NCBI RefSeq assembly: GCF_963921235.1
Contig: NC_086097.1
Location: forward strand, 143,842,001-143,906,000
From: Mobula hypostoma
Taxonomy: Eukaryota
Direction of reading: 5' to 3'
DNA: 64,000 nucleotides
The position numbers and the translations under genes are program-made. This document shows, one piece after another, positions 4,401 through 60,339 of this stretch. Positions within the stretch are counted from its first letter, which is position 1. Each line of letters begins with the position of its first letter. Under the pieces are notes generated by a model. It saw only the letters and a program-made list of their open reading frames with translations, was not told the DNA's origin and did no database searches.

Positions 4401-7400
4401 TCAACATCAAACCCGCAGATAAGGCGGTGGGGATGCTGTAGTAGTCTGGCAGACTGGCCTCTGCCTTGCTGAGGCCAGGTGACAACTCTCAGACACATCC
4501 TCTTACTTTACCCCTCGAACAGGTGCCCACTAAGGAGCACCAGGCTGTTGTCACCCGCACTATAACTGACCTTATTAACTCTGGGGATCTCCCATCCATT
4601 GCCACCCACCTCATTGTTCCCTAATACCACACTTCCCATTTCCACCTCCTACCCAAGATCCACAAACTTGCCTGTCCAGGTAGACCCTTTGTTTCTGCTT
4701 GTTCCTGTCCCACTGAACTTGCATATATCTGCATACCTTGACTCAGTTTTATCTCCCCCAGTTCAGTCCCTTCCTACCTACATCCATGATACTTCACATG
4801 CTCTGGATCTTTTCAATGACTTCAAATTCCCTTGCCCTAATCATTTCATTTTCATCATGGACATCCAGACCTTATACACCTCCATCCCCATCAGGAGGAG
4901 CTTAAAGCGCTTTGCTTCTTTCTAGGAAACAAACCCAACCTGTTCCCCTCCACCACTGCACTCCTCTGTGTGGCAGACTGGCCCTCACTCTCAATAATTT
5001 CTCCTTCGGCTATCCCTACTTCCTTCCAACCAAAGGTGTAGCCATATGCACTTGCATGGGTCCCAGCTATGCCTGCCTTTTCGTCTGCTACGTGAAACAA
5101 TCTATGTTCCAAGCCTACACTGGTATCACTCCCCAAACTTTCCTATGCTACATCGATGACTGCATTGGGGCTGCTTCATGCACCCATGCTGAGCTTGTTG
5201 ACTTCATCAACTTTGCCTCCAACTTCCATCCTGCCCTCAAATTTACCTGGTCCATTTCTGACACCACCATCCCATTTCTCGATCTCACTGTCTCTATCTC
5301 TGGAGACAGTTCACCTTCTGATATCTTCTATAAAGATGCTGAGGATGTTCTATGAGTCTGTGGTGGCCAGTGCGATCATGTTTGCTGTTGTGTGCTGGGG
5401 CAGCAGGCTGAGGGTAGCAGACAACAACAGAATCAACAAACTCATTCGTAAGGCCAGTGATGTTGTGGGGATGGAACTGGACTCTCTGATGGTGATGTCT
5501 GAAAAGAGGATGCTGTCCAAGTTGCATGCCATCTTGGACAATGTCTCCCATCCACTACATAATGTACTGGTTGGGCACAGGAGTACATTCAGCCAGACTC
5601 ATTCCACCAAGATTCAACACTGAGCATCATAGGAAGTCATTCCTGCCTGTGGCCATCAAACTTTACAACTCCTCCCTTGGAGGGTCAGACACCCTGAGCC
5701 AGTAGGCTGGTCCTGGACTTATTTCCATCTGGCATAATTTACATATTATTATTTAATTATTTATGGTTTTATATTGCTATATTTATACTCTGTTCTTGGT
5801 TGGTGCAACTGTAACGAAACCAAATTTCCCTCGGGATCAATAAAGTATGACCATCCAGCGGTCCCCAACTACCGGGCCGCAGAGCATGCGCTGCCAGGCC
5901 GCGAGGAAGCGATATGATTTGGTCAGCTGCACCTTTCCTCATTCCCTGTCACGGCCACTGATCAGCCATTACGCATGCGAGGTCATGACTCGCGCGTCAT
6001 CCGTTTCAGGGTGGGAAGGTGATCAACTTCTCGAGCTTGCGAACGATGATGGGCTGAAAAGTATGTTTGATATAACATCTCTATCGGCATTTTGGATCAA
6101 AGTCAAGGCTAAATATCCTGAGATAGCCACGAAAGCACTGAAAACGTTGCTTTCATTTCCAACATTTTTCTGCGAAGCGGAGTTTTCTGCAATGACTGCA
6201 ACGAAAACTAACCTGCGGAATAGACTGGACATCAGGAACCCCCTTTGAGTATCGCTGTCTCCCATCACTCGATAGGACGGTGTTGTTGCAGGGAAACAAG
6301 CCCAGGTCTCCCACTGATTCAGCGATATTGGTGTGTTGCAATGATTTTATATATTCATACGGGGAAAATATGTGCTGTGCGTTTAATATCCAAATATTAC
6401 TTAAAATGTTATGATGCTATTGACTTATAAGTGACCTATATAACCATATAACAATTACAGCACGGAAACAGGCCAACTCTGCCCTTCTAGTCCGTGCCGA
6501 ACGTTACTCTCACCTAGTCCCACCGACCTGCACTCAGCCCATAACCCTCCATTCCTTTCCTGTCCATATACCTATCCAATTTTTCTTTAAATGATCATAT
6601 CGAACTTGCTTCTGCCACTTCTACTGGAAGTTCGTTCAACACTTCAAGCTCCCCTGATAATTGATTTATCATTATATCCATGCGAGGAAAATATGCGCTG
6701 TGTGTTTAATATTAAATTCGTTAGATAAACCCTTTTAGAAACAAAATTGAGTGTATTACCCACTTATCACCTATATTCCGGGCATTTACTTGGGGAGGGG
6801 GAGGAATCGGCGTCACGACGCGCATGCGCATTGGTGCCCGCGCAAGGCTTCATGGTCATTGTAGTCTTCGATAAACAACGTATTTGACTGCTACTCTTGT
6901 TCGTTGGTAACCCTACCCCCCCCCCCCCCCCCCCCCCGCGGTCGGCAAGTCCGCAAGAATATTGTCAATATTAAATCCGTCCGCAGTGCAAAAAAGGTTG
7001 GGGGCCCCTGACTATGACTATGATTATGACTATGACTAAACTCACCAATTCTCACAGCTAACAGCAGGAATTCTGCAGATGCTGGAAATTCAAGCAACAC
7101 ACATAAAAGTTCCTGGTGAACGCAGCAGGCCAGGCAGCATCTCTAGGAATTCTCACAGCTATTCGACTATACCTGCTCCCACCCTGTCACCTGTAAAAGT
7201 GCCATCCCCTTCTTTGTTTCTCTGTCTCCATCACATCTGCTGTCAGGATGAGGCTTTTCACTCCAGAACTAATGAAATGTCCTCCTCCTTCAAAGAAAAG
7301 GGCTTTCCTTCTTCAACCATCAACACTGCCTCACCTGCAGCTCTTCCATTTTGCACTTGTCTGTCCTCACCCCATCCTCCACCACCCACCAGGGATAGAG

Positions 7401-10400
7401 TCCCCCCTTGTCCTCACCTACCATCAAAGTAGCCTCCGCATCCAGCATATAATCGTCTGTAACTTCTGCCATCCCCAATGGTACCCCACCACCGAGCACA
7501 TCTTTCCCTCCCCCCACCCCACTTTCTGCTTTCTGCAGGGATCACTCCCTACGTGATTCCCAAGTCCATTTGTCCCTCCCCACTGATCTTCCTCCTGATA
7601 CTTATCCTTACAAGCAGAACAAGTGCCATACCTTCCCCTACACCTGCTTCCTCACTCCTATTTAGGGCTCCAAACAGTCCTTCCAGGTGAGGTGACACTT
7701 CACCTGTGAGTCTGTTGGGGTCAGTTACTGTATCTGGTGCTCCCAGTGTGGCCTCCTGCGTATCGGTGAGATCCGACGTAGATTGGGAGATCGCTTCACC
7801 AAACATCTACGTGCCATCTGCCAGAAAAAGCAGGATCTCCCGGTGACCACCTATTTCAATTCTACTTCCCATTTCCATTCTGAAATCTCAGTCCATGGCT
7901 TCCTTACTGCCACAATGAGGCCACTCTCAGGTCACTCTCAGGTTGGTGGAGCAATACCTTATATTCTGTCTGGGTAGCCTCCAACCTAATGGCATGAACA
8001 TTGGTTCTTGAACTTCCAGTAATTGCCTTACCATTCCACCTTCAGCATTCCCATTCCCTTTCCCCCTCACCTTTTCTCCTTATCAGTCAATCACCTCCCT
8101 CTGGTGCTCCTCCCCCCTCCCTTTCTTGAATGGTCTTCTGTCCTCTCCTATCAGATTCCCTTTCTCCAGCCCTTTATGTCTTTCATCCATCATCTTCCCA
8201 GCTCTTCACTTCACCCCTCCTCCTCTCCCAGTTTCACCTATCACCTATCACCTACTACCTCATCCTTCTTCCTCCCCTCCCCCCACCTTCTTGCCCTCAT
8301 CTTCTCTTCCAGTCCCGATGAAGGATCTCGGCCCGAAATGTCGACTGTTTACTCCTTTCCATAGATGCTGCCCGGCCTGCTGAGTTCCTCCAGCATTTTG
8401 TGTGTGGTGCTTAGATTTCCAGCACCTGCAGATTTGCTCGTCTTTGTGCTAAAACTCTGTCACCATCAGTCTTGTAAATCCATTTGGCTCAGTCTTCAAT
8501 TGAATAGTGCATTCCAGGATTCTTTAGTGTGTACCTAGAAGTCATGTACGTAATACATCTGAGTATACAATTCTTAATTCATTTGTATAGGCTCCAGTAT
8601 CATGTAGATGCAGCAGCTCCAATGATTCCTCTCATGCACGTGTTGTCAGTATCCTCCAAGACTTTGTTGACTCCTGGTTTTGTTGATCTTCATAGGGGAA
8701 CCTGATTTTTGTCACAGAAGGTGACACTGTCTCAATCGGCAATGAAGACCTGGTCTCTCAGATTGCAGAGATCACAATGACTGAGCCAGATACCGTAAAG
8801 AAGACACTTCTCCATCGCACTGTAGCTGCAGGAGGGGGTGAAGTAATTGAAAAGCAGCACACGTCCCAGGAAGCCACGTATGGCAGGGATGCTTTCGCTA
8901 AGGTAGAAATATTTGCTTGTGAGTCTGGGTGTATCTATTGTTTGAGTGTTGTAGGAATGCCACAAATTGAGTGAGAGACATAGCTTAGCACCAACGCCGT
9001 TATATCTTAATCAGGTTGTTATGGGTTCAAAGTTCACTTCAAGGACTTCAGCTAAAAATGTGGACTAACAACAATACAGTTCTGGTCACCCGCCTGCAGG
9101 AAAGATATCAATAATCTTGAAAGTGTGCAGAGAAAATTTATAAGTTTGTTGTTGGAACTTGACCTGAGTTACACGGAAAGGTTGAAGAGGTTCGGACTTC
9201 ATGGAGTGTAGGGGAATGCGGAGAAATCTTACAGAGGAATGCAAAATTATGAGGGGTACAGATAGGGTACATGCAAGCAGACTTGTGGTGAGACTAGAAT
9301 TAGAGGTCATAGCTTTAAGGTGAAAGGTGAAATACGTAACAGAAATGAGGAGGAACTTCCTCACTCAAAGGGTTTTGCGAGTGTGGAACGAGCCAGTAGT
9401 GGAAATGGCGGTTGCAGGCTCAATTGCAACATTTAAGGGAAGTTTATATGGGTACATGGATGACAGGAAGGCTATAGTCTGTGTGCAGGTAGATGGCACT
9501 AGGCAGAAAACCAGATTGGCATGGACTAGATTGGCCTAAAGGCCTGTTTCTGTGCTGTGGTGCTCTATGACCCTGTGACTCTATTGAAAAGGCACTCTTC
9601 TTCAGATCAGATGTTAGAGGCCAACAGCTCAGAAAGGGGTCGCACTTTGGCCTAACTCATCCAGGCAAACCAATTTGCCTTCCTGAGGGAGTCCCATTTG
9701 CCAGTGCTAGGTTGATTTTGAACATGATGAGACTTACTCTGAAAACACTCTGAGAGCATTTGCTCTTAGACAGAATTACTAAAACAAATTATCTCATCAT
9801 TTGGTTTGTTTGTGTTTCTGGAATCAGGTGGCTTCTTGTGTCCTATATTGCAATGGTGACTGCAATTCCAAAGTATTCCATTGCTTGCAGAGTGCAATAG
9901 TACACATAAAACTACTGAAGGACAAGCTTTCCTTTATTTTCAAATGCATTGCACAAACCCATTCACCACTATAATTATTTCTGAAAAGCTGAACTGTTAT
10001 GAAAACTTCCGTTCTGGCCAAATCAAAATCAAAGGCAGAGTTGAGTTTATTGTCATATGTACAAGAACAGGTCTGCACAAATGAAATGAAGAACTTGCAG
10101 CAGCATCTCACACACATAGCATCAGATGCACAACATTTTCAACAAAAACATAAATTAACTGTGAATTATACCCCCTTTTTAACAAGAAAACATAATTGGA
10201 ACAAACAAACAAACCCCTTTATAGTGCAAAGTAGTTGCACTCCGTATAGTGTTACTATACTGAGGTAGTGGTAGGAGTGGTGTTGGTTGGTTCAGCCACT
10301 AGATGGTTGAAAGGAAGTGGCTGTACTTGAACCAAGTACTGTGGGACTTAAGGCTTCTGTACCTCCTGTCCTACAGTAGCTATGAAGAGGTGGCATGACT

Positions 10401-13400
10401 CGGATGATGGGATCTTTGATGGCAAATGTTGCCTTTGTGAGACAATGCCACCTGTAGATTGGGCATACTGTTGTACACCAAGGGCGGAGCAAGAATAACT
10501 TTTTAATACTGCAATTCACACATATATGCAGTGAGGCAAAGCTACAAAAAGACAAGTACCTGTTGCAAGGACCCCATTATATGAAATCCAGTGAATACCT
10601 TGAGCTTTATCTGAAAAGGCACTATCCGAACAACGACATTGATAATCTCACAAAGAAATTATTGGGATGCCTAGAAGGACATGTGAAATCAACACAGTGT
10701 GTCAAGAAAATATTTTAGAGCTGTCAATTGAGTACAGAGAAACCAAGTAATTAACTTAAAAAGGCAAATATTCTTGGAAAAGTTAGTGATCAATATACAC
10801 TCAGTTGTTTCTTTATTAGGTACACCTGTATGCCTGCTCATTAATGTGAGTATCTAATCAGCCAATCACAAGGCAGCAACTAAAAGAATAAAAACATGCA
10901 AACATGGTCAAGAGGTTCAGTTGTTGTTAAAACAAGACATCAAAATGGGAAGAAATGTGATCTAAGTGACTGACTGTGGAATGATTGTCTGTGCCAGATG
11001 GGGTGGTTTGAGTATCTCAGAAACTACTGATCTCATGGGATTTTCACACACACCAGTCTCTCAGTTTACAGAGAATGGTGTGAAAACAGACAAAAATACA
11101 TATCCTGTGAGCAGCAGTTCTGTGGGTGGAAACACCTTGTTAATAAAGGAGTATGGTTAGACTCGTTCAAGGTAACAGGAAGTTGACAGTAACTTTAATC
11201 ACCATGCGTTACATTAGTGATGTGTAGAAGAACATCTCTGAATATACCGTATGACAAACGTTGAAGAGGATGCGCTACAGCAGCAGAAGACCATGAGCAT
11301 ACATTGTTGGGTACGGGAGCTGCCCCATAAAGCGGCCTCTGAATGTAGGAACTCTTAATGGCAATTACAGATGGTTGAACTATTTTGCGTTCTGTGAGGC
11401 AGTGCTGTGTGGAACATCGGGAAGCAGGAGTCATACTTAAAAAAGCAATGCATAAGTTAGAAAGAAGATCACATTTTTGCCTCTCATTTGAATCATGTTG
11501 CTCATGGCAATTTTATTCTTTGACATTTATTAAACTTTTCAGATTTGTTTCTTTCTTTGCCCTTGAAGTATCTGACAAAAAGGAATTTTTACATTGCTGT
11601 ATTGTGCCTTTTATATGCTGCAGAAGGCTAAATGAAAACTCACTTACCCCCTACACAATTTCTTGATTTCCTGTTGGCTAAACAAAGAATTATGTGCAAT
11701 GCCTGAGAAAAGGGCTCCAAAAACTCATCAAAACACTGAGTAAATGTTGCGGATGCAACTGCCTTTCCTACTCCTGCAACTTCTAAACTATCCTCATCCA
11801 CTCTTTCATTATTCATTTTAGTATATTACCTACCAAAACAAGACACACATTTTTCTGACTAAATGCCTTTATGCATGGGATTTCATATTTCACAAATTTG
11901 ATTGAGTATTTTGAAGAGAATAGCAAAATGACTGACTAGGGTAGAGCTGTAGACATGGTCCACATGGATTTTAGCAAGGGCTTTGACAAGGTCCTGCATA
12001 ATAGAACGGTCTAGAAGATTAGATCACCTGAGATGCGGGGAGAGTTAGTAAGATGGATATAAAATTGGCTAGGTACTATGAGTTAGAGTGGAAGATTGCT
12101 TATCATATTGGAGACCTGTGACCAGGGGTGTGCCATGTAGATCTGTGCTGGTCCTCTGTTGTTTGTCATGTACATTAATCGCCTGAATGAGAATGTAGAT
12201 GGCATGGTGAGTAAGTGTGCAAAATTGGGGATATATTGAAGAAGGTTGTTTGAGGTTGCAGCAGAATCTAGATCAACTGGGAAAGTGGGCAAGTGAATGG
12301 CATGTGGAATTTAACATGGGCGAGTGTGAAGTGATGCATATTGGGAAATTAAACCGGGTCAGGATATATACAGTAAATATGCAATATTGAACAAAGAGAG
12401 CTTATGATATCAGTACGTGGATCTCTGAAAATGGGAACACGGTGACAAGAGGTGGGGAAGGCATGTAGTGTGTTTACATTTATCAGTTTAACACAGTTCA
12501 TATGTCATATTACTGCCAGACAAACTATTAGTTGGGCTGCCCTTACAGATGTGAATAGACAGTTCGTGCATTGCGCCCCTGTGTCCATTCCCCTCAATAT
12601 TACGTATATTGTTGTGGGGGATGACCTCTGGGGAAATGCCATGGAGACCAGATTACTGGCACTGAGCATGGGTCCGTGGTGAAGAGGGAGAAGAGGGGAC
12701 TGGTAATCAGGGGAACAGACAGAAGCTTCTGTGGACATGAACGGGACACCCGAATGGTATGTTGCCTCCCAGGTGCCAGGGCTTGAGACATCTCAGAACG
12801 CATCCACAACATTTTGGAGGGGGAGGGAGAATAGCCAGATGTCTTGCTACATATTGGTACAAATGACAAGGAAGGAAAAGCAAAGAGGTCCTGAAAAATG
12901 AATTTAGAGAGCGAGGCAGAAAGCTAAGAAGCAGTGCCTTCAAGTTAGTAATTTCTGGATTGCTGCCTGTGCCACATGCCACGAGGGTAGCCACAGGACA
13001 ATTTGGCAGTCCTGACGAAGGGTCTCGGCCTGAAACATCGACTGCATCTCTTCCTACAGATGCTGCCTGGCCTGCTGCGTTCACCAGCAACTTTGATGTG
13101 TGTTGTTTGGCAGTTTAATGCATGGCTGAGAAGCTGGTGCTGGGGCCCGGCAGGGCATCTGGTTCTTGGATCACTGAGATCCCTTCTGGGGGAGGTATGA
13201 CCTGTTCAAAAGTGACCTGAACATAAGGGGAACCAATATTCTCTCAGGCAGGTTCGTTAGTGCTGTTGGGGAGGCTTTAAACTAATCTGGCAGGGGGGTG
13301 GGAACTGGAGTGAAGGGACTCAAGACAGAATGGATGGTAAAAAAGCAAAGATAGCATGCAGTCAGACCGTCAGGAAGGAAAGGCAGATGATAGGACAAAA

Positions 13401-19400: not shown

Positions 19401-22400
19401 AGAAGAAAGCTCATTGCTATCTTTGGAAATGAAATAATAATATCTTGCCAATGAACAGTGATGCAATTATTCCCATTTACCATGTCTGGATTAGCTCCTT
19501 GGGTTGGCACTGTATAAGTAATCCAAAGATGGGAGGTTCGTGAATGGCTGTTGACAATTGCTTTCCTTTCACCCCTTTCCCTTTCCAGGTTGACTACTTC
19601 AACAATCAGATCATTGTGGATCTAGTGGAGCAGCCACACAAGGGAGTCATTGCTATCCTAGACGAGGCCTGTATGAATGTGGGGAAGGTGACAGATACCA
19701 TGTTGGTGGACACCATGGATACCAAGCTGGGCAAACATGCTCACTACACCAGCAGAAAGGTAGGACACTATCGGAAGATAGTACCGAAGTCAGGAAATGT
19801 ATAACATAGAAACAGGCTGTGAGTCAAGTTGCCAAGGCAAAGAAACACCAGGCTGGTGCACAGATGCAGAGATTTTCCCCATTATGCTAATCATTAGGAT
19901 TCATGTGAGTCAAGTACACAATGATAGTGGTGTTCCCTCACACTCAGGTTTCTCGTACTGTGGGGTGGATCTCAGTCACTCAGAAGATGTCTGCAAGAGC
20001 ACTTCCCAACCTGTGACATGAACAACCAAAAAGCTCCCAAAAGACAACATTGAAGGGTGAGAAGCAGCAGATCATTAGCTCAGTAACTGGTCCAACATTG
20101 ACATGGGCATGTACTGCCACTGTACAAATTGCCACAGCTTGACAAAACTAAACACAACTAATTCCCAGATGAAATGACATTGGGCATTTTTGGGACTACA
20201 TTCTGCACCCAAGGGAGTAGGATTTCCTTTATCCCAGCCGTGAGTGTTATTGTCCTGGCAAGGATGTAGTTCACTTATCTTCGCCCTAACCATCCTTTTG
20301 GAAATACCACAGTCAGTGTAGCGAGGAGTGGCCCAGGATTTTGGTCCTGCGACGATGGAGGAATGCAATGTCTGTTTGATGTATAATGTAGACCAAGTTA
20401 CTGTAAGAGTCACAGCCAACGTTAGTTTTTCCATCACCTGATAGTCACAAGGGAGCTCTCTAGCAGCAGACACTGATGTCCCTATGACTGTGTGGGTTTC
20501 ATAGAAACATAGAAAACATACAGCACAATACAGGCCCTTTGGCCCATAAAGCTGTGCTGAGCATGTCCCTACTGTAGAACTACCTAGGCTTTACCCATAG
20601 CCCTCTATTTTTCTAAGCTCCATGTAGCCATCCAGGAGTCTCTTAAAAGACCCTATCGTTTCTGCCACCACCGCCGCCGCAGGCAGCCCGTTCCACGCAC
20701 TCACCGCTCTCTGCATAAAAAACTTACCCCTGACATCTCTGTACCTACTTCCAAGCACTTTAAAACTATGCCTTCTCATGCTAGCTAGCCATTTCAGCCC
20801 TGGGGAAAAGCCTCTAACTATCCACACGATCAATTATCTTATACACCTCTATCAGGTCACATCTCAATGTCTGTTGCGCCAAGGAGAAAAGGCCGAGTTC
20901 ACTCAACCTGTTCTCATAAAGCAAGGGTTAAGAAGTTGTGGGAATATTTTGTTGGCACCAGAAGCGGAACAATTCTTATGGGCTGCCCTAGCACATTCCC
21001 AACACCCTAGCACATCCTCAACACAAAGCTACATATTTCACTGTATGTTTCGATGCTTCAATGTACATAAGACAAATAAATCTTATCTCATCTAAGCTAA
21101 TCTAATGACCTGGCACTAAAGCCAAAATCATTCTTACCATTCCCAAATTGAAAGGTTCTGAGGCCTGGAACTGACAACCAACGACCCACCTGAGGTTAGG
21201 TGACACACATGAAATCTGCCAACCTCTTTCATGGAAGCATTGACTCATACAACAGAAAAATATGTCCATAGTGTCACTCAAAAGGTGCTAAACCTTGCGG
21301 TATCTAATGTTTGTGAACATTTAATCTGCAGCTGTCTCCAACTGAAAAGGATATGGAGTTCCACAAGCATTTCAGAATAAAGCATTACGCAGGACAAGTC
21401 ACGTAAGTTTCTGTTTTAATTTTGCAGGCTGGGTTGTAATGGCTGTTTATTATGATTTATTTAAGCAAGTATGTCCCAATTTCACAATTGTTTTGGGGAC
21501 TTCCCACATTAATTGGGGATTTCACACACCCAAATGGGTGAAGTCCAATTTCTAAGCAGTAGTTTCATCTGCATGGTAAAAGCCTGGCAATGTTCGCTAA
21601 AAAATCGATTGCATGAAGTGCTGACATGGGTGAACTCACCAGTTCTGGTGGATCTCTCAGTATAGATTAGTAGGGAGAAAGGGAGCAGTAAACTAAAACT
21701 GTGTTTTGTGCTTCGATTCAGGTACTCGGTGGAAGGTTTTATTGATAAGAACAAGGATACACTCTATCAGGACTTTAAACGCCTGATGTACAACAGGTGA
21801 GGACAGGACCATGCAGATCTCTGCAGTGTCTTTTTAGCTTTAATTTACAGTCTGCAACAAACAGTTGGTAAGACGGAATGTCCAATTCCCTTCTGGCTAT
21901 GTACAACTCATGTTTGGTTTGGTTTCATCCCCCATGATTAAATGAGTATTATTTTTTATTTTCTGCAAAAATATATTTTATTCTTAAATTTGCAAATAGC
22001 TAATACGGTTCATTCAAATGTTGCCATCCTCTATACAAGCCATCACTTTCTGTTTACGTTAATCAATATTTTCAATGTACTCCTTGAGCAAACAGTCTTG
22101 GGGAATTGTTTTACCGAGGTTCCAGACCCTGAGCATGCAATAGAAGCAGACCCTTAAACCTTACTTTCTGGGGTCTTGATTTTCCCAAAGCAGCTCTGTG
22201 TTTGTCTCTGCACTTCAAAGAAATTAATTGTTTAAACCATGCTGTCAAATCTTTCATTAGGATGTTTCTGAAAAAGAAATTACAGAGTTACATAATAGAA
22301 TACTCTTTTAAAAATGGAAATATCCTCCCCACATCCACTCTATCCAGGCCTTTCAATATTTGGTGAGATCCCGCCTCATTCTTTTATACTCCAGCGAGTA

Positions 22401-25400
22401 CAGGCCCAAAGCCATCAAATACATCTCATAAATTAACCCTTTCATTCCCGGAACCATTTTTGTGAACCTCCTCTCTACCCTCTCCAACGCCAGCCCACCT
22501 TTTCTTAGATAAGAGGCCCCAAAATGCTCAGAATACTCTGAGTGCGGCCTATCCAATGCCTTATAAATCCTCAGCATTACATCTTGCTTTATATTCTAGT
22601 CTTCTCAAAATGAATTCTAACATATCATTTGTCTTCCTTATCTCCGACTCACCCTGCAAGTTAACCTTTAGGGAATCCTGCACGAGGACAAATGAGTCCC
22701 TTTGCACCTGTCATTTTTTAATTTCCCCCACATTTAGAAAATTGTCTACATCTTTATTCCTCCTACCAAAGCGCATGGCCATACTCTTCATTACACTTGA
22801 TTCCACCTACCACTACTTTGCCCCATTCTTCCAATTTGTCTATGTTCTTCTGCAGACTCCTTACTTTCTCAGCTCCACCTGTCCCTCCACTTATTCTCGC
22901 ATCATCCAGTAACTTGGCCACAACGCCATCAATTCTGCTATCCAAATCATTGGTATATAACATGAAAAGAAGTGTTCCCAACATCAACCCCTGTGGAACA
23001 CCACTAGTCACCAGTAGCCAACTAGTAAAGGTCCCCCTTATTCCCATTCTTTCTCTCTCACCAGTCAGGCAAGCTTAGAGTCATAGGAAAAAAAAGCATA
23101 CAAACAGGTCCTTTGGCCCCTCTAGTCTGTGCTGAACCATTTAAACTTCCTGCTTCCATCGACCTGCACCTGGACCGTAGCCCTCCATACCGCTACCATC
23201 CACGTACCTATCCAAACTTCTCTTCATCGTCGAAATCGTGCTTGCATGGACCACCTGCACTAGCAGCTCATTTCACCCTCTGAGTGAAGAAGTTTCCCCT
23301 CATGTTCCCCTTAAACTGCTCACCTTTCACCCTTAATCCATGACTTCTAGTTGTAGTTCCACCCAACAGCAGTGGAAAAAGCCTGCTTGCATTTACCCTA
23401 TCTATACCCCTCATTATTTTGTCATCCACATTATCATTCAGATCATTAATACAGAAGACGAAATAGAACAGACCCAGCACTGATCCCTGAGTCACTCCAT
23501 TAGCTACAGGTCTCCAGTAAGAGAGGCAACTATCTACTACCACTCTCTGGCTTTCCCCACAAAGCCAACATCTAATCCAATTTACTACCTCATCTTAATG
23601 CCGAGTGACTGAACCTTCTTGACCAACCTGCAATGTGGGACTTTGTCAAATGCTTTGCTAAAGCCCATGTAGACAACATCCGCTGCCTTGCCTTCATCGA
23701 CTTTCCTGGTAACTAGGTTTCCACTTACCAAGTATACCTTTGCCAGAAAACAACATGTCTCAATCCTTACTTGCCAGATCCTTTTTGATACCATCAAATT
23801 TGGCCTTTCTCAGATCTAGAATCTCAACCCAAATTTAGAAGATGGAACCTTCTATCTGTGCTACTATCTTTCCAGTAATATCAGGGGCTCTTGTGTTGTT
23901 AAACATCCTTATGTGTGGAACCTTGTCAAAGGCCTTCTGAAAAGCCAAGTAAACAACATCCACTGGCTCTCCTTTATCCATCCTACGTGTTATTTCCTCA
24001 AAGCCAATAAATTTTTAAGTGTTGAATTCTTCAAACAGCAAAGGTTTGTAAAACAAGATTTCCCTTTAAGGCAACCATGCTGACTTTTACCTATTTTCTC
24101 TTGTGCCTCCAACTACCTTGAAACTACATCCTTAATAGTGGACGCCAACATCTTCCTGACCACTGAAATCAGGCTAACTGGCCTATAACTGGTGGACATG
24201 ATAGGGTCTTTAAAGAGACTCCTTGATAGGTACATGGAGCTTAGAAAAATAGAGGGCTATGGGTAACCCTAGGTGACTCCTAAGGTAAGGATATGTTCGG
24301 CACAGCATTGTGGGCCGAAGAGCCTGTATTGTGCTGTAGGTTTTCTATGTTTCTATCTTTCTGTAATTTCCTTTCTTCTGCCTCCCTTCCTTCTGAAAGA
24401 GTGGAGTGACACTTGCAAATTTCTTGTGCTCTGGAGCCATTCCAGAACCTAGTGATTCTTGAGGGATCATTACTAATGCTTCCGCAATCTCATCAGCTAC
24501 CTCTTTCAGAACCCTGGGGTGAAGTCCATCTGGTTCAGGTGGCTTATCAGCTTTCAAATCTTTCAGATTCCCAAGCATCTTCTCCTTAGTAATAGCAACC
24601 ACACTCGCTTCCATCCCCGATACTTGAATTTCTGACATACTGCTAGTGCCTTCCACAATGAAGATGGCTGCAAAATACTTATCAAATTTGTCCTTCATTT
24701 CTTTTTCCCCTAATACTACCTGTCCAGCATCATTTTCCAGTGGTCCGGTATCTACACTTGCCTCTCTTTTACTCTTTATGTATCTGAAAAAGAACTTTTG
24801 GTATCCTCTTTTAAAAAGGGCTGATTTCGTTGATCACCAAGTGACAGCACTTTGCTCTTTGAAGGATTCAACACTTAAAAATTTATTGGCTCGTGTACTT
24901 CCATACTTCATCTTTTCTCTCCTTACTGTTTTTTCAGTTGTCTTCTGGTGGTTTCCTAATCAGCCAACTTCCCACTAGTTTTTGCTATATTGTATGCCCT
25001 CTCTTTTCCTTTTATGCAGTCTTTGACTTCCCTTGTCAGCCATGTTTGCCCCTTTAGAATACTTCATCTTTGGGGTGTACCTATCCTGCATCTTCCAAAA
25101 GAGAATAAGAGAATGATGTTAGAGAGAAAGAAAATAAAACCATAAAGAAGACATGAATTTTAATTTGTAGGGCAAAACGTAAAAACAGACATAGAGGGAT
25201 AGAAAATTACTAAGAACCAAATGCCACATCTTTGTGAATGTGGCCGTTTGCTGAAGGAGCAAGAATGGGTAAAGTGTGTCCATCCTTAGAAAGGACTAAC
25301 CCAGATATTCAAAGGCCAGATAACATCTGTACTCAGAAAATTTTGGAGGTTTTAATCATATTTGAAATTACCATGTTTCTGGATAAAGAGAAAATAGTTA

Positions 25401-28334
25401 GAAGCAGCCAACATGATTTTCAAAATCACAAGAAACCTATAGAACTGATTGATCTGAGAGCAGATAAATTTGATTGGATCTCTTGGCTATTGAAGAGGAT
25501 AAATACCAACAGATTTAGAAAGGTCTTTTCCAGTTGTAATTTTCATGGATCACCTGGGACCATTATGGTCTTGGTTGTAAATTCAAGCTGCATCAGGAAA
25601 CCAGCATTGAGAGCCACCTCCCACACTCCTGTTCCCTGGATAACCTTCACTGTTCAGTAAACAATCAACGACACTTCAGAAAACAGTTTTATTCAGGCAC
25701 CTCATTACCTGGTCTGTAGAAAAGGACTGACTTCATCGATCACGAAGTGACAGCACTTTGCTCTTCGAAGGACTCAGCACTGGAAGATGTATGCCTACAG
25801 TTTGTGAGATCTCAAAAGAATTTATTTTTACAACTGTCCTTCTATCATGCAAATTATTCATATGGAAGGAGAGGCACAACTTCACTCACCACAACACTGA
25901 ACTGACAACTGAACACAACCTACAGATCACTTTCAAGGCCTCTACAACTCATTTTTTTCAGTATTAATTATTTACTTATTTAAAATTATTGCTTTTATTT
26001 ATTATTAGTTATTATTAGAGTTGTTTTTGTTTGCATTTCCACAGTTTGTCATCTTTTGTATATTGGTTGCTTCTCAGTCTATGTGTGCAGTTTTTCATTG
26101 ATTCTATTATATTTCTTTGATAATCTATTTCTTTGATTGTATATACTTTGATGATATATTTGCTTTGAACGTTGAACTATGGTTACAAGGTGAAATAGAC
26201 TCAATTGTAGCTAAGGGGGTCTATACACAAGCATATTGTAAGATAAATAATATTTTGGTGAAAAAGGATTTCAGTTTGGAAACTTTTATCAACTGATGTT
26301 CTTGCAAGATCCAACAGAGGGCAGCAAAACTATAAACTCTTCCTGAACAACAGGAATTCTGCAGATGCTGGAAATTCAAGCAACACACATAAAAGTTGCT
26401 GGTGAACGCAAATTCCACATCCCATTCCCATTCTGACATGTCTATCCACGGCCTCCTCTACTGTAAAGATGAAGCTACACTCAGGTTGGAGGAACAACAC
26501 CTTATATTCCGTCTGGGTAGCCTCCAACCTGATGGCATGAACATCGACTTCTCTAACTTCCGCTAATGCCCCACCTCCCCCTCGTACCCCATCTGTTACT
26601 TATTTTTATACACACATTCTTTCTCTCACTCTCCTTTTTCTCCCTCTGTCCCTTTGAATATACCCCTTGCCTATCCTCTGGGTCCCCCCCCGCTTGTCTT
26701 TCTTCCCGGACCTCCTGTCCCATGATCCTCTCATATACCTTTTGCCTATCACCTGTCCAGCTCTTGGCTCCGTCCCTCCCCCTCCTGTCTTCTCCTATCA
26801 TTTTGCATCTCCCCCTCCCCCTCCATCTTTCAAATCCCTTACTCACTCTTCCTTCAGTTAGTCCTGACGAAGGGTCTCGGCCTGAAACGTCGACTGCAAC
26901 TTTTCCTGAAAGTAACTTCAGTCTTTCTGCCCAAATTCCTCTGTAATGGGAGGAGTAGTGAATGCTGTACTCTGTAGTACTCTGTAGCAGCTCTTTATGC
27001 TGAGATGCTTAATGGGAATTTTCGCAGGATGGACAAGAAAGTTTTTGTTCACTCACCGACTGGCAAACTCCAGTCGTATTTCTGAGGTTTAGGGTGGTTT
27101 GTTTACAGCAATGTTAGTTCTGAATTTCCACTGGGATTCTTAACTTGAATGTGCACTGAATAGTTTTCTTTCAGGTCCATTAAGACCAAAAGTTAAGCAC
27201 CTCATTATTTGAGAAGTACCCAGGATTATCTTGAAGCCTTCAGAAGTGCCACATAGACACATGTCTATTTGTCATTCCTGATGCAGGGTCTCAACTTGTA
27301 ATATCAGCTACCCACAAATGCTGTTTGACCTGCTGAATTCCTCCACCAGTTTATTTTTGCTCTCTCTATTTGTGTTGCAAAACAGAGTAGTGATAGCTGC
27401 AACTGTACATAGCAACCGGCCTGTGAATCCCGGGAGTGGATGAGAAAGGGGGAAGGAACTCCTTGCTCCTAATACTGATAGATATCTCCAGCCTTGGGTA
27501 TAAGGTTTTCAACACAGTGAGCTGAAATGTTTTTTTTTTCCTGTGTTCCCAGTTTTAACCCTGTTCTGAAAGACATGTGGCCAGAAGGGGAAATGAGCAT
27601 CACAGAAGTTACGAAACGGCCCCTGACTGCTGCATCACTCTTCAAGAATTCCATGATTGCCCTTGTTGTTAACTTGGAATGCAAGGTAGGACAAGGCTGC
27701 CTGACTCTGCACAGAACCAGCATTACATATTACCACAGGGAACAAATCTGCTTTGATTGTCTTCACTCCTCTCCTTTATGTGGCAGTTTCAGGTTATGGT
27801 ACAAGTTCAGTGGGACTGTTAAACTTGCATTGAACTTAAGAAGGAGCCACACTTTATGCATGGGTAGAGGTGAAGAGGAAGAGGTCAACAGCTGTTGTCA
27901 CCATTAGCACGCATACACAGAAAGCCCAGTGACACAGTATTCATACATTATAGTCTAATATGAACAGACAGTTTGAGAAACAAAATGCATTCTCTCATTT
28001 CAGTCCCACACATACATGTGCATACAACTCAGTCATACATCCAATTGACTCACATGTTCACTCACACATCTCATTCACAAGATCACACAGCTCATTCATA
28101 CACGTGATAACTCATTCCCTTGGTTCACACAAGAATTTAACCCACCCTACACACAGCTTATTACACTTCCAATCCATATCTTTCATGTGCACACACACAA
28201 TACACACAGGCACCACACATACACACACACACACAGGCACATATGCATGTAGATACATACATACACACAGGCACACACACACACACAGGCACATATGCAT
28301 GCAGGTACATACATACACACACACGCACACACTC

Positions 28335-28382
<48 letters not shown>

Positions 28383-31300
28383 GCGTGAACACTGCACATA
28401 CACTTAACCCATTTCATTTGTACACAGTTTACTTACGCCTGTCATTTACATGATTAATTTGCTCATATCCCTTACCCTTACTTCTAATGTAGAGTCATTG
28501 AGCAATACAGCACAAATACAGGCGCTGTGGTCAATCCAGTCCATGCCTAATGCAGGCCCTCCCAGTTGATCCAAGTTTTCTGCATTCAGACCATAGCCCT
28601 CTGAGTCTCACACCTCCATTTCCCTATCCAGGTGGTTTTTAATTCATGCTACTGTACCTGTCTCAACCACTTCCTGTGGCTCATTCCATTTACTCACCAT
28701 TCTCTACGTGAAAACATTGCTCCTCGGGTCCCTGCTAAATCTTTCCCCTCTCACACTGAATCTATGCCCCTAGCTTTGGACTTCCTGACTCTGGGGAAAA
28801 GATTGTTACTATCCACCTTATCTATGTGTATCATTATTTCAAACATTTTTATAAGGTCACACCTCATTCTCCGTCATTCCAGGGAATAAAGACAAAGCCT
28901 GGCCAACATTTCTCTTTAACTCAGACCCTCTAGCCTAGTAGTGTCCTTGTAAATATTTTCTGCACCCTTTCCAGTGTAATCACATATTCCTATATGTGGT
29001 TATAGAGCACTCTAAGTGCAGTCTCCTCAACGATTTATACAACTGCAACATTATGTCCTAGCTCCTTTACTCACTGCCTTGACTAATGAAGGCCATGATG
29101 CTAAATGTCTTTTCCACAACCATGACTGCATGTGACACCTTATTTGCACGCAAGCCCCTCTGTTCCATTAAACTCCCTATAGCCTTAACCTTCATAATAT
29201 AAATCATAGACTGGTTGACTTTTTCAAATCACCTTACACTTGTCAGTATTGAAATCTATTTACCACTCCTTGACCCACATCACTAACTGATCAGGATCTC
29301 GAAATCTATGATGTTTCTGTATTATCAACAACTCCTCTTAATTTTGTATCATCCTAAACCCATTGCATGCATCCTTCTTTTTCTTGACCAGAATATTCCA
29401 ACCTGATGTCATGATGTCTATCCACGGCCTCCTCTACTGTAAAGATGAAGCCACACTCAGGTTGGAGGAACAACACCTTATATTCCGTCTGGGTAGCCTC
29501 CAACCTGATGGCATGAACATTGACTTCTCAAACTTCTGCTAATGCCCCACCTCCCCCTTGTACCCCATCCGTTATTTATTTTTATACACACATTCTTTTT
29601 CTCTCTCCTTTTTCTTCCTCTGTCCCCCTCACTATTCCCCTTGCCCATCCTCTGGTTTTCCCCCCTCCCCCTTTTCTTTCTCCCTAGGCCTCCTGTCCCA
29701 TGATCCTCTCCCTCCCACTTTCAAATCTCTTACTAGCTCTTCTTTCAGTTAGTCCTGACGAAGGGTCTTGGCCTGAAACATCGACTGTGTCTCTTCTTAG
29801 AGATGCTGCCTGGCCTGCTGCGTACACCAGCAACTTTTATGTGTATCTCTCTTTAGCCAGGGTTTCCTAAACATGCCAGGTTTCCCCTTCACCCTAAAAG
29901 GAACATGCTGCTCTTGGACACTTACCATTGCATTGCTAAAAGCCTCCCATTTACCGGTCATTCCACTCCATTCACTTACACGTCTCACATACACACAACT
30001 CATCCACATGCATATGGTTTTCATGCAAAAAGCCCACTCCCATTTCATTTACATGCGTACTTAGCCCAAATACAGACCTCAAACACATACATATCATTGG
30101 TGCTTCTCACTCACACATGCTAGTTAGCTCATCTGTATTCCAGTTGGGTCTCTTCGTTTAATCTGAAAGACTCATCCTAGATTCCTTTTTTTTTGTAAGA
30201 AATGGTGTTTGATTACTTCTACAATAATTCATCCTTTCAGCCAAATTACTTTGCATTCTTTATTCTGAAGAAATCTTGAGCTGAGTTTAGTTCTGGATCA
30301 GGCTTATCTTTTCTTTATCGCGTTTGCTCTCAGCCCTTTGGAGCCAAGACAGAATAAGATAAATGATGGCATTGGTGTTATTCCTTGTCCTTCCTGAATG
30401 GTTGTCATATTTCTGAGCTATTATAATTAACTAACCAGCTCCTGTACGAGTGGAAATCAGGACAGTTGTTCATCCCCGTCATTGCTGCTGTGTGTGATCC
30501 GTTCTGGGAGGCTAAACCATTTGGGGCCTTACGTGGGAGTGCCCTGTGGGGAGCTAATGAACAAAATATCTAAATTAAAATGAGCCTACAAAGCTTCCGG
30601 TTATGGTTCCTGGCCACATAAATTTTTGTATTTAATGGTCTGAATTATTTTATGTCGTATTCTGAAGGAGGGTCATGAAGAACTTATTGGGAAAGAATGA
30701 ACTGAACCCATTGGCTGAATGATCATCCATTTTTGTTTGTGAATGGAAGCTCAGCACCCTGTTATATTATTTCCATTTTTCCAGACTCCAGATTGTTTGC
30801 AGCTCACAGTTCCTGAATTTTCTTTTTGCTCTCTGTCTCTCACTTTGCTTTCATGTACCTCTTTTCAGTCAAGTTGCTGATGATTAACATGCCTTTACCA
30901 ATAGTGTTTCTCTCTTTACAGATGCAATTGATCCTTTAATTATGATTCGTCAATAGCTTCAATTTATCATATTTTATCAATGCAAGGATGACTGATTAAC
31001 TGAGTCTACCTCAGACTTTTTAAATAATTCCTATTGATTTTATACATTGTGGGTAAATGAGAAAGAGATTGTTTATTCAAATGTTTTAATTTGGGAATAA
31101 CTAGACAAAGGGAATGACTATAATCGGACTGGGTCTATTATAATGAAGTAAATGAATTTGGTGTGTCTCACTTTGACAGAGTGGGCCTATGAGTCCCAAT
31201 ATTTGCAGTTCTTTTGTACTTTAATTGCCTAGTGCGTTCTCTTGTTTCAATCAGGAACCTTACTATGTGCGATGCATCAAGCCCAATGATCAAAAATCAC

Positions 31301-37300: not shown

Positions 37301-40300
37301 AGAGGGGGTAATCTCAAAAGAGATTTTAGGTGCAAGTTCTCTGAATGGAGAGTGGTGGGTCCTGGAGTGTGCTTTCTGGGGTGGTGGTAGAGGTAGAAAC
37401 ATCCGAGACTTTTCAGATGTTTAGTTGGGTTCACCAACGCGAGGAAAGTGGAAGGCTGTGCAGACTGTGCAGCAGAAGAGATTAGCTTGGCCATTTGATT
37501 AGTAATTTAATTGGTTCAGCACAACATTGTGAGTGGAAGGGCCTGTTTCTGTGCTATGCTCTTTGGGATCTTTGGAGGAAATCTTCCATTCCGTCCTATT
37601 TCCCTAAAGTGGTTCCATCATCTTTTAAAGGATTATTTTTAAAATATGTATCCAGCCCCCTATAAGATGCTGGATTCTGATTCTTCTGCCGTCACTGGTT
37701 GAACATTTCACGTCCTGCCAATTGATTATCTCTGAAGACTTTTCTTAGTCTGTTTGTTTTAAATTAATCACTACCAGTAAGGTCTGCTCTTCTTTCCAAT
37801 ACAAGATTTTGGAGGCTTTCTTGTAGAATGGAATAAAGAGAAGTAGGAATTAGCAAAACTAATCAATCATAGAAACATAGAAACCTTGCAGCACAATACA
37901 GGCCCTTCAGCCCACAATGCTGTGCCAAACATGTACTTACTCTAGAAATTACCTTGGGTTACCCATAGCCCTCTATTTTTCTAAGCTCCATGTACCTGTC
38001 CAAAAGACTCTATTGTGTCTGCCTCCACCACCACAGCCAGCAGCCCTCACCACTCTCTGCGTAAAAAACTTACCCCTGACATCTCCTCTCTACATACATC
38101 CAAGCACCTTAAAACTGTGCCCTCTCATGTCAGCTATTTCAGCCATGGGAAAATGCCTCTGACTATCCACATGATCAATGACTCTCATCATCTTATACAC
38201 CTCTGTCAGGTCACCTCTCATCCTCCGCTGCTCCAAGGAGAAAAGGCCGAGTTCACTCAACCTATTCTCATAAGGCATACTCCCCAATCCAAGCAAGGTC
38301 CTTGTAAATCTCCTCTACACCCTTTTCATAGTTTCCACATCCTTCTTGTAGTGAGGTGACCAGAACTGAACACAGTACCTGTACTCCAAGTGGGGTCTGA
38401 CCAGGGTCCTATATAGCTGTAACATTATCTCTCGGCTCTTGAACTCAATCCTACGGCTGATGAAAGCCAATATACCATATGCCTTCTTAACCAGAGTCAA
38501 CCTGTGCAGCAGCTTTGAGTGTCCTATGGACTCGGACCCGAAGGTCCCTCTGATCCTCCACACTGCCAAGAGTCTTACCATTAATACTATATTCTGCCAT
38601 CATATTTGACCTACCAAAATGAACCACCTCACACTTATCTGGGTTGAACTCCATCTGACACTTCTCAGCCCAGTTTCTCATCCTATCAATGTCCCGCTGT
38701 AACCTCTGACAGCCCTCCACACTATCCACAACACCTCCAACCTTTGTGTCATCAGCAAATTTACTAACCCATCCCTCCACCTCCTCATCCAGGTCATTTA
38801 TAAAAAATCACGAAGAGAAGGGGTCCCAGAACAGATCCTTGAGGCACACCACTGGTCACTGTCCACCATGCAGAATATGACCCATCTCCAACCACTCTTT
38901 GCCTTCTGTGGGCAAGACAATTCTGGATCCACAAAGCAAAGTCCTCTTGGATCCCATGCCTCCTTACTTTCTCAAAAAGCTTGCATGGGGTACCTTATCA
39001 AATGCCTTGCTGAAATCCATATACACTACATCTACTGCTCTACCTTCATCAATGTATTCAGTCACATCCTTAAAAAATTCAATCAGGCCCATAAGGCACG
39101 ACCTACTTTTGACAAAGCCATGCTGACTATTTTTAATCATATTATGTCTCTCCAAATGTTCATAAATCTTGCCTCTCTGGAGCTTCTCAATCAACTTACC
39201 AACCACTGAAGTAAGACTCACTGATCTATAATTTCCTGGGCTATCTCTACTTGAATAAGGGAACAACATCTGCAACCCTCCAATCCTCTGGAACCTCTCC
39301 CGTCCCCATTGATGATTCAAAGATCATTTCCAGAGGCTCAGCAATCTTCTCCCTCACCTCCCACAGTAGCCTGGGGTATATCTCGTCCAGTCCCAGCGAC
39401 TTATCCAACTTGATGCTTTCCAAAAGCTCCAGCACATCCCCTTTATTAATGTCTATATGCTCAAGCTTTTCAGACCACTGTAAGTCATCCCTACAATCGC
39501 CAAGGTCCTTTTCCGTAGTGAATACTGAAACAAAGTATTCATTAAGTACCTCCGCTACCTCCTCGGGTTCCATACACATTTTTTCACTGTCGCACTTGAT
39601 TGGCCCTATCCTCTGACATCTTACCCTTTTGCTCTTTACATACTTGTAGAATACCTTGGGGTTTTCCTTAATCCTGCTCGCCAAGGCCTTCTCATAGCCC
39701 CCTTCTGGCTCTAATTTCATTCTTAAGCTCCTTCCTGCTAGCTTTATAATTTTCTAGACCTAAACATAAAAACATAGAAAACCTACAGCACAATACAGGC
39801 CCTACGGCCCGCCAAGCTATGCAGAACATGTCCTTACCTTAGAAACTACCTAGGCTTACCCATAGCCCTCTATTTTTCTAAGCTCCAGGAGCCTCTTAAA
39901 AGACCCTATCATTTCTGCCTCCACTGCCACTGCCGGCAGCCCACTCCATGCACTCTCCACTCTCTGTGTAAAAAACTTACCTCTGACATCTCCTTTGTAC
40001 CTACTTCCAAGCACCTTAAAACTAGGCCCTATTGAGCTAGCCATTTCAGCCCTGGAAAAAGCCTCTGACTATCCACATGATCAATGCCTCTCATTATCTT
40101 ATACACCTCCATCAGGTCACCCCTCATCCTCTGTCACTCCGAGGAGAAAAGGCTGAGTTCACTCAACCTATTCTCATAAGGCATGTTCTCCCATCCAGGC
40201 AACATCCTTGTAAAGACAAGGCTTGTCAGAAGGGCAGTGTTATGATAATTGTGGGGGATTTTAACATGTGAGTGGATTGGGAAAATCGGATTGGCACTGG

Positions 40301-59250: not shown

Positions 59251-59408
59251 GAATGAAATGGAAGAACCAGGGGATTGGAGAGCACTGTGAAGAGAGGAGT
59301 GCAAAAAGTGATGCAGCCCTGCAAATTTCAACAAAACTTTCAATATAATTCAGCAGCTTTAAAAATCTTTTTGTAAAGAAGACTGGCAGCAATTTCGGTG
59401 GAGATTTC

Positions 59409-59621
59409 TGGTGAACGCAGCAGGCCAGGCAGCATCTATAGGAGAGGTGCAGTCTACACTTCGGGCTGAGACCCTTCGTCAGGACTCACGAAGGTCTTGG
59501 GTCTCAGTCCAAAACATCAACTGCACCTCTTCCTATAGATGCTGCCTGGCCTGCTGCGTTCACCAGCATTTTTTGTGTGTGTTGCTTGAATTTCCAGCAT
59601 CTGCAGATTTCCTCGTGTTTG
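59409..59621. mobile_element. Palindromic non-coding PLE-derived mini-element (two opposed hammerhead/tail copies)
   Basis: 12-bp TSD GGTGGAGATTTC at 59397-59408 and 59622-59633; the left arm is the reverse complement of the right arm. Confidence 0.85.
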
Positions 59622-60339
59622 GGTGGAGATTTCACTTGTGTAAGGAATGTTCCACGATAACAGGCTCATCAATAAATAATAAAGTACCTAAAATAGAAAG
59701 ATACATGCTGCAGATCAGAATATGTTGCTTCTCTATGCCTGGGCTGGAAGAGAACAACATCAAGGGCTATACTGATGGATGATCTGCATTTATCCCAGGT
59801 CTGAGAATATCCAATGGGGCAAGCTAGAGCAAATCTTGTGTGGAATTCATGCAGCAGCTGATCTGAAGCTCTTTATTTCTAGCACCAGATGCAGAATGCA
59901 GAGAGAATGTTCTGTTCCCTGTTACTGACAACTTTTAAAAGGACAAAATTAGCTTTCACTAACACCCTGTTGACACCAATTACTTGATGCTTTATCTGCT
60001 TGGGAGGTTCCTATAATAAGATGACAGTTTCCTGCTATTTGTTCTAATCTCACAAACAAAGCCTGGAAGTAGGTTTAATGACTGACTGAATAAAGTCATC
60101 AAGAACACAACACTCTTTAAAGTACATCATCTCTGTCTCCATGGTAAAAGCTGTGGCATTTTTCTAGTGTTCTCACACTACATTAATGTTCTGTTTGTCG
60201 GGATGGGGGTAGGTGGTGAAATTAGCTCCATTGGCTTTCATTTTCGATCATTTCTCTTTACTGTCTTTCTCCAATGAGAATCTGTATCCTTATGAAATAC
60301 CTCTTGCTTTTGTGGTGTGGTGTTGACCACAGCTGACCC

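What the first reader, a model, noticed from the sequence alone, without database searches (positions are those of the whole stretch)
26860..26895. Canonical minimal hammerhead ribozyme in a myosin intron, one of a dispersed set of at least six
Seen: stem I AGTC/GACT, core CTGACGA, stem II AGG/CCT, GAAA, then C-GTC with a palindromic ACGT instead of stem III. Related copies lie at 8310 (core mutated), 13006 and 29751 (intact, AUC site), 27277 (decayed) and 59448-59522 (two opposed, mutated). Established: Penelope-like element terminal repeats carry such minimal type I hammerheads, which cleave best as dimers. Inference: the three intact copies are sense to the myo1g pre-mRNA and could cut introns co-transcriptionally. 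The motif class is known; activity at this locus is not.
Basis: partly seen in the sequence, partly recalled or inferred. Interest (0 to 1): 0.7.

Follow-up and report, generated by a model that had tools for sequence, protein, structure and literature searches.

The report
Penelope hammerhead remnant in ray intron
This is a real copy of the tiny self-cutting RNA motif already known from Penelope-type jumping genes, sitting at the end of a 550-base insertion in an intron of a myosin gene of what is likely a devil ray; a related organism lacks the insertion, and the motif is likely inert debris that is predicted not to cut the host RNA.

Summary
The motif is real and beyond chance: 3 descriptor hits against a mean of 0.02 in 200 shuffles. 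It is the 3' end of a 550-bp Penelope-like (Neptune/Nematis-type) fragment, 26348-26897. The fragment has an inverted tail, a GIY-YIG C-terminus and a 13-bp target-site duplication, and lies in an intron of a myo1g-like gene whose tested exon is identical to a Mobula birostris protein. One contig of a relative about 5% divergent shows the exact empty site. Corrections: stem II most likely closes G·U after a bulged A, where the class has G-C. Copies 13008 and 29751 have ACAT, which breaks the dimer palindrome, so only 26860 keeps core and palindrome. Its own upstream RNA is predicted to sequester the core, and it has no matched partner. In the literature such motifs do not cut as monomers, cut weakly as dimers, and one needed its element's protein. 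Verdict: an ordinary member of a known class, probably inactive. This scan noted the same kind in at least 11 other genomes. Interest 0.1.

The parts
26860..26895 (+). Minimal type-I hammerhead motif: stem I 26860-26863 with 26892-26895; core CUGACGA 26864-26870; bulged A 26871; stem II 26872-26875 with 26880-26883 (closing pair G·U); GAAA 26884-26887; palindrome ACGU 26887-26890; C17 at 26891
26348..26897 (+). Whole 550-bp Penelope-like insertion that carries the motif at its 3' end
   Evidence: TSD search; empty site in run X16 record 18, which joins 26334 to 26898
26335..26347 (+). Left copy of the 13-bp target-site duplication
   Evidence: 1 mismatch to the right copy
26898..26910 (+). Right copy of the target-site duplication; the target matches the element's own sequence downstream of the hammerhead (left copy vs sister copy 59499: 9 of the first 10 nt)
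26348..26410 (-). Inverted, 5'-truncated pLTR tail at the 5' end of the insertion; contains no hammerhead
   Evidence: blastn to 7049-7149 and 59555-59619
26411..26563 (+). C-terminal end of the PLE ORF (GIY-YIG region), open to its stop codon
   Evidence: 26420-26560 is 96% identical to P0001, which has RT, a CX3CX2C linker and a GIY-YIG match
26564..26859 (+). Pyrimidine-rich 3' UTR/pLTR; its last ~20 nt are predicted to pair with the hammerhead core
21797..27552 (+). Host intron of the myo1g-like gene (GT..AG)
13008..13104 (+). Sister insertion of about 100 bp starting at stem I, with a 10-bp TSD candidate; ACAT breaks the palindrome
29414..29844 (+). Sister insertion (GIY-YIG end, UTR, motif at 29751-29786); ACAT breaks the palindrome; lies in the next intron
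7049..8446 (+). Longer sister insertion: inverted tail, zinc-finger linker and GIY-YIG remnants, motif at 8311-8346 with U4>C, broken stem II pair and C15.2>U
27274..27350 (+). Heavily decayed copy (11 of 36 mismatches; no GAAA)
59409..59617 (.). Head-to-head pair of pLTR ends with a 16-bp TSD candidate; the minus copy has A15.1>G and C17>A, the plus copy lacks CUGANGA and has G12>A

Best explanation
The motif is the minimal hammerhead at the end of a 550-bp truncated Penelope-like retroelement fragment inserted in a myo1g-like intron, and it is likely an inert passenger that is predicted not to cut the pre-mRNA to any meaningful extent. Steps: (1) shown: the insertion has a 13-bp TSD, an inverted 5' tail, a GIY-YIG C-terminus, a pyrimidine-rich UTR and the motif. 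(2) shown in one contig: the orthologous site is empty in a relative about 5% divergent. (3) inferred: it arrived by target-primed reverse transcription of an RNA uncut at this site, since the copy runs 6 nt past C17, probably primed internally through about 10 nt of homology between target and element. (4) inferred from the class: in the active element the motif works as a dimer through the ACGU palindrome and probably needs the element's protein. (5) predicted: here a monomer cannot form helix III (2-nt loop), the core is paired to upstream RNA, 10.1-11.1 is G·U, and the nearest recognisable partners carry a helix III mismatch 2.9 and 13.9 kb away, so cleavage would be rare. (6) inferred: the family's copies are decaying, mostly at CpG sites.
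For: PLE anatomy. Empty site: (X16 record 18, positions 249/250 join 26334 to 26898). Very high copy: 25,139 contigs of run X1 lie on 26850-26915 at >=80%; 7 motif remnants in 64 kb. Fold: P(stem I) falls from 0.90 with 5-nt flanks to 0.057 with 25-nt flanks and <=0.002 with 50-200 nt; 8.3 of 10 core nt pair upstream, more than 200 of 200 flank shuffles. Double-hammerhead energy is -11.1 kcal/mol for a homodimer and -5.3 with 29751 or 13008, against -19.5 to -25.3 for separate monomers. Decay: 10 CpG-type changes in 50 site-copies against 4 other changes in 180, two of them at catalytic positions. Literature: no monomer cleavage and low dimer cleavage (PMC4209133); no cleavage without PLE protein, no RNA-seq ends at the site, ribozyme mutants insert equally well (PMC11167929).
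Against: 26860 keeps every catalytic nucleotide, the GUC triplet and the palindrome, so it is chemically competent on paper. T at 11.1 is shared by 3 of the 5 aligned window copies and may be a subfamily state rather than decay; 10 of 85 distant motifs also have G·U there. Equilibrium folding ignores core tertiary energy, kinetics and proteins. Copy 13008 keeps stems I and II in most contexts (P 0.3-0.5 at four of six flank lengths). The empty site rests on one contig of one run. No assay was possible.
Confidence: 0.86

Rival explanations
1. Occasional cleavage in trans with no selected role: one of the many other family RNAs, helped by the PLE protein, pairs with this copy as the second half of a double hammerhead and cuts the intron at 26891 in a minority of transcripts.
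For: The core, GUC and palindrome are intact. The motif is abundant in two runs guessed to be RNA: 1,246 and 1,501 contigs on the 66-nt stretch. An Anolis PLE hammerhead is protein-assisted (PMC11167929).
Against: The core is predicted to be sequestered. The double-hammerhead fold is about 21 kcal/mol above the cofold MFE even for a perfect pair. The insertion ends 6 nt after the cut site, and in Anolis the protein-binding region is inferred to lie further downstream in the RNA, in sequence whose counterpart this copy lacks (inference across clades). No RNA-seq ends at the site in Anolis. 6 of 7 window copies are sense, so no depletion is seen, though n is tiny.
Confidence: 0.1
2. Exapted intronic ribozyme that tunes myo1g splicing or output, like the CPEB3 ribozyme.
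For: It is sense in an intron, 661 nt upstream of the next exon. Precedent exists (PMC10274809, abstract only).
Against: The site is empty in organism F. The copy looks like any other of a very abundant family, with no partner and no helix III.
Confidence: 0.02
3. A unit of a non-LTR retrozyme (tandem hammerhead repeats yielding circular RNA).
For: A few contigs show short head-to-tail repeats of the motif elsewhere in these genomes (joint 26894 to 26860 in 2 contigs of X1, 1 of X16, 1 of X13). Retrozymes are reported in one chondrichthyan (bioRxiv 10.64898/2026.07.22.740005, passages).
Against: This locus is a single unit joined to PLE coding sequence, with no tandem copy.
Confidence: 0.02

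Closest known systems
Minimal hammerheads (min-HHR) in pLTRs of metazoan Penelope-like elements (Cervera and De la Pena 2014, PMC4209133; parts 1-2 of 4 of the text read)
   Same: Type-I topology, CUGANGA/GAAA/UH core, helix I of 4-5 bp, extra nucleotide between 9 and 10.1, palindromic 15.2-16.2 with no helix III, position at the PLE repeat, mostly solo truncated copies, some opposed pairs.
   Different: G·U instead of the conserved G10.1-C11.1; helix II of 4 bp rather than the 7-8 bp of the Schistosoma examples; a ray host, not among the examples in the text I read (supplements not opened).
Poseidon element of Anolis carolinensis (PAc) and its protein-assisted hammerhead (PMC11167929; parts 1-2 of 4 read)
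   Same: Hammerhead in the pLTR; inserted copies run through the cleavage site, as expected if uncut RNA is the template; variable 3' ends.
   Different: Different clade (this one has the CX3CX2C linker); this copy stops 6 nt after the cut site; no activity data here.
Neptune/Nematis-type endonuclease-positive PLEs (features as in Craig et al. 2021, PMC8557442; passages read)
   Same: RT followed by a Zn-finger linker and C-terminal GIY-YIG in the closest protein (P0001); 5' truncation; inverted truncated copy at the 5' end.
   Different: Only the last ~50 codons are present; Neptune versus Nematis was not resolved by a tree.
Conserved intronic ribozymes (CPEB3 HDV-like; amniote intronic hammerheads; PMC10274809 abstract, PMC6765202 passages)
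   Same: Sense orientation in an intron of a vertebrate gene.
   Different: Not conserved at the orthologous site, multi-copy, lacks helix III, no Rfam match.

Membership tests
PLE min-HHR (PMC4209133) | Catalytic core CUGANGA...GAAA...UH | tested here: met
   CUGACGA, GAAA, GUC at 26864-26891
PLE min-HHR (PMC4209133) | Type I with short helix I (4-5 bp) | tested here: met
   4 Watson-Crick pairs plus U·G
PLE min-HHR (PMC4209133) | Extra nucleotide between 9 and 10.1 | tested here: met
PLE min-HHR (PMC4209133) | Highly conserved G10.1-C11.1 pair | tested here: not met
   G·U in this copy; G-C in 2 of 5 window copies and in 75 of 85 distant motifs (where the pattern allowed only C or T). The copy is therefore filed as a deviant descendant of the class, not as a canonical member.
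PLE min-HHR (PMC4209133) | Palindromic 15.2-16.2, no helix III | tested here: met
   ACGU at 26887-26890; not met in 13008, 29751, 8311, 59486
PLE min-HHR (PMC4209133) | Located in a PLE terminal repeat | tested here: met
   297 nt downstream of a GIY-YIG-type ORF end that is 96% identical to P0001
PLE min-HHR (PMC4209133) | Covariation among family members | tested here: inconclusive
   0 of 9 pairs with two-sided change in 5 window copies. Distant, non-ray motifs covary in helix I pairs 1-2 (A-U 65/U-A 13; C-G 38/G-C 36 of 85; related rows).
PLE min-HHR (PMC4209133) | Self-cleavage as a dimer | not testable with these tools
   Needs an in vitro assay; energies are unfavourable
Canonical type-I hammerhead (Rfam models) | Match to a curated hammerhead model; helix III and 6-bp helix I | tested here: not met
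   No hammerhead family among 14 Rfam matches at E<=10; no helix III
Neptune/Nematis-type EN+ PLE | C-terminal GIY-YIG after RT | tested here: met
   PF01541 in 4 of 5 homologues tested, E 0.0005-0.002 but 18.8-20.9 bits, below the 22.6 cut-off; RT motif YIDD in P0001 and at window 5149
Neptune/Nematis-type EN+ PLE | CX2-5CxxC linker between RT and EN | tested here: met
   C-x3-C-x2-C in P0001, P0005, P0007; degenerate at window 7600; absent from the truncated 26348-26897 copy itself
Neptune/Nematis-type EN+ PLE | RT phylogeny placing it in Neptune | not tested
   No reference set was fetched
Non-LTR retrozyme | At least two consecutive tandem units, each with a hammerhead | tested here: not met
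   Single unit at this locus
Exapted intronic ribozyme | Conserved at the orthologous position | tested here: not met
   Empty site in organism F (one contig)

The most novel reading that the evidence does not exclude
In rays, where this motif occurs about once per 9 kb in this window, core-intact intronic copies such as 26860 are cut in trans by abundant family RNAs and the PLE protein forming intermolecular double hammerheads. A transposon family would then nick nascent pre-mRNAs genome-wide whenever it is expressed.
Probability: 0.04. Interest if true: 0.65.

Novelty: new member of a known kind. Interest (0 to 1): 0.1.

Why it matters
As read here it matters little: it is one more solo copy of a described motif class. 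Its use is as a cleanly bounded example (TSD, empty site, inverted tail, 3' end at a target-element microhomology) for the open question of how Penelope-like elements start reverse transcription and whether their hammerheads cut in vivo. If the novel case held, it would be a rare instance of transposon ribozymes cutting host introns in trans at genome scale, testable by cyclic-phosphate sequencing in ray tissue.

Tried and rejected
No whole genome is held for this window, so no genome-wide count, orientation-bias or decay test was possible. Rfam at E<=10: no hammerhead hit. Bare core pattern: chance level. Isolated folds of the 46-mers are not unusual (z -0.53, -1.21, +0.79). No RNA holder was listed for 25600-28200; the runs used as RNA are guesses and all are contigs, so ends at 26891 could not be examined. 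One search listed no per-position variants, so the family frequency of C versus T at 11.1 stays unknown. The metagenome scan returned 122 of about 310 stretches; none matched the ray element by blastn, so they inform on the class only. Idea of a conserved upstream 'anti-core' off-switch: significant only for 26860 (0 of 200 shuffles), not for 29751, 8311 or 13008 (52, 55, 29 of 200). In distant motifs 11 of 48 cluster representatives had q<=0.1 (median 0.46), several of them because an inverted copy of the motif lies upstream. Rejected. Pfam on short PLE fragments gave no relevant family. The Atlas gave only myosin/IQ leads. A sequence look-up in the scan's notes returned nothing. Lünse et al. 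on dimer cleavage is not held; only its title and a review's summary were seen. PMC6238598 (passages) had nothing relevant.

Full report
Observation. The 36-mer is as described: stem I AGTC/GACT, core CTGACGA, a stem II region, GAAA, then CGTC, with C17 at 26891. The bare core pattern is at chance level (9 vs 7.65). A full descriptor finds 3 hits (13008, 26860, 29751) against a mean of 0.02 in 200 shuffles, and only 26860 has a palindromic 15.1-16.1 stretch. Further copies are at 8311, 27274, 59451-59486(-) and about 59499. Rfam returns no hammerhead model at E<=10.

Host. Motif search and tblastn place myosin-I exons on the + strand from about 1307 to 57350. Exon 43830-44036 is 100% identical to P0009, annotated 'myosin-Id-like' in Mobula birostris, and nearly all named bony-vertebrate hits are myosin-Ig. 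The motif lies sense in intron 21797-27552, 661 nt before the next exon.

What carries it. The motif ends a 550-bp insertion, 26348-26897, bounded by a 13-bp duplication with one mismatch. In order it holds an inverted pLTR tail (26348-26410), the last ~50 codons of an ORF, a pyrimidine-rich UTR and the motif. The ORF end is 96% identical to P0001. P0001 has an RT motif, a C-x3-C-x2-C linker and a weak GIY-YIG match, the layout given for Neptune/Nematis PLEs in PMC8557442 (passages), which also describes the inverted 5' copy. In run X16 (organism F, about 5% different in the flanks) one 699-nt contig joins 26334 directly to 26898. That is the empty site with a single copy of the duplication. 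A contig of organism B runs from 26870 into the unique flank, so B likely shares the insertion, but only 28 element letters are covered, under the tool's 31-letter bar. Organism D had no cover of the junction. The family is very abundant: 25,139 contigs of run X1 and 7,844 of X16 lie on 26850-26915 (not a copy number).

Corrections to the anatomy. PMC4209133 (parts 1-2 of 4 read) lists for this class an extra nucleotide after position 9, G10.1-C11.1, and a palindromic 15.2-16.2. Folding favours the bulged-A register GGGU/GCCU (P 0.95 vs 0.02), which closes with G·U; 2 of 5 window copies have G-C. That other pairs at 10.1-11.1 slow cleavage is recalled, not from a call. The 'AUC' copies are ACAT: acceptable as triplets, but they break the dimer helix. 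Differences among the five aligned copies, against a reference with C11.1 and G16.2, are 10 CpG-type in 50 site-copies and 4 others in 180. Three of the ten are the shared T at 11.1, which may be inherited rather than independent. No pair shows a two-sided change (0 of 9). In 85 distinct motifs of the same pattern from a metagenome scan (122 of about 310 stretches fetched; none similar to the ray element by blastn), helix I pairs 1-2, which the pattern did not specify, are Watson-Crick in 93% and 89% with swapped pair types, and 0 of 1000 shuffles reach this (rows are related). Several of those loci carry a matching GIY-YIG-type C-terminus or RT. The structure is thus real at class level.

Mechanism. 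In an active element the motif most likely works as a double hammerhead through ACGU. Published tests found no monomer cleavage and low dimer cleavage. For an Anolis PLE there was no cleavage without the element's protein, no RNA-seq ends at the site, and no need for cleavage in insertion (PMC11167929, parts 1-2 of 4). At this locus, P(stem I) drops to 0.057 with 25-nt flanks and <=0.002 with longer ones, because the upstream pyrimidines pair with the core. A perfect homodimer scores -11.1 kcal/mol and heterodimers with 29751 (2,891 nt away, next intron) or 13008 (13,852 nt) score -5.3, against -19.5 to -25.3 for separate monomers. These energies omit core tertiary contacts and proteins, so they rank the options rather than prove inactivity. 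The copy includes 6 nt past C17, so its template was uncut or re-ligated. None of 5 mapped 5' truncation points in the window falls at the cut site. 6 of 7 copies are sense (two-sided binomial 0.125, computed by hand; copies not independent), so there is no sign of purging.

Results against my reading: this copy keeps core, triplet and palindrome; T11.1 may be a working subfamily state; 13008 keeps stems I and II in most contexts; the empty site is one contig; nothing here is an assay.

Known and new. It works like, and descends from, the PLE min-HHR class. It fails the G10.1-C11.1 feature and is not a canonical hammerhead, a retrozyme unit or a conserved intronic ribozyme. Four paper searches listed no study of this ray family. 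One search listed 15 of 45 papers, none with 'elasmobranch'. One preprint includes a single chondrichthyan (part 1 of 5 and passages). Supplements of PMC4209133 and of the preprint were not seen and may list shark or ray examples. Earlier scan notes (15 findings in at least 11 genomes, unchecked) reached the same reading, which I had stated before the look-up. Verdict: real, ordinary, probably inactive; interest 0.1.

Noticed in passing
window 26335-26347 and 26898-26910; 13001-13010 and 13105-13114; 59393-59408 and 59618-59633: Three short PLE insertions have 10-16-bp duplication candidates (1 mismatch each), and each has a junction where target and element share sequence (9 of 10 nt at the 3' end of 26897; CAGT at the 5' end of 13008). 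This suggests microhomology-guided priming or joining. No statistical control was run.
   Followed up: partly
window 26860-26862: Hundreds of contigs in each DNA run stop matching just before stem I, with heterogeneous upstream sequence (agreement 0.3-0.4), as do copies 13008 and 59486. Many insertions may begin at the 5' edge of the hammerhead rather than at its cut site; another subfamily's UTR explains part of this.
   Followed up: partly
window 4300-5350 and 60950-61930: Two decayed PLE reverse-transcriptase fragments on the + strand, 71% alike; no hammerhead attached.
   Followed up: partly
window 26894 to 26860 joint: A few contigs in X1, X16 and X13 show short head-to-tail repeats of the motif elsewhere in those genomes, which would be better dimer candidates than this locus.
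   Followed up: no
L009, L028, L055/L056, L069: Metagenome loci with two opposed motifs 25-750 nt apart, like the window's 59409-59617 pair.
   Followed up: no
P0003, P0004, P0008: Ray gene models named ATP synthase C3-like, DIPK1C and VKORC1L1 isoforms include this PLE's C-terminal peptide, either exonised or mis-annotated.
   Followed up: no
window 13500-16350, 22360-25050, 37850-42750, 62200-63550: Large decayed LINE-like (CR1/L2-type by recall) RT and endonuclease fragments in both orientations; 42610-42752 and 43479-43621 form a 143-nt inverted repeat at 97%.
   Followed up: no
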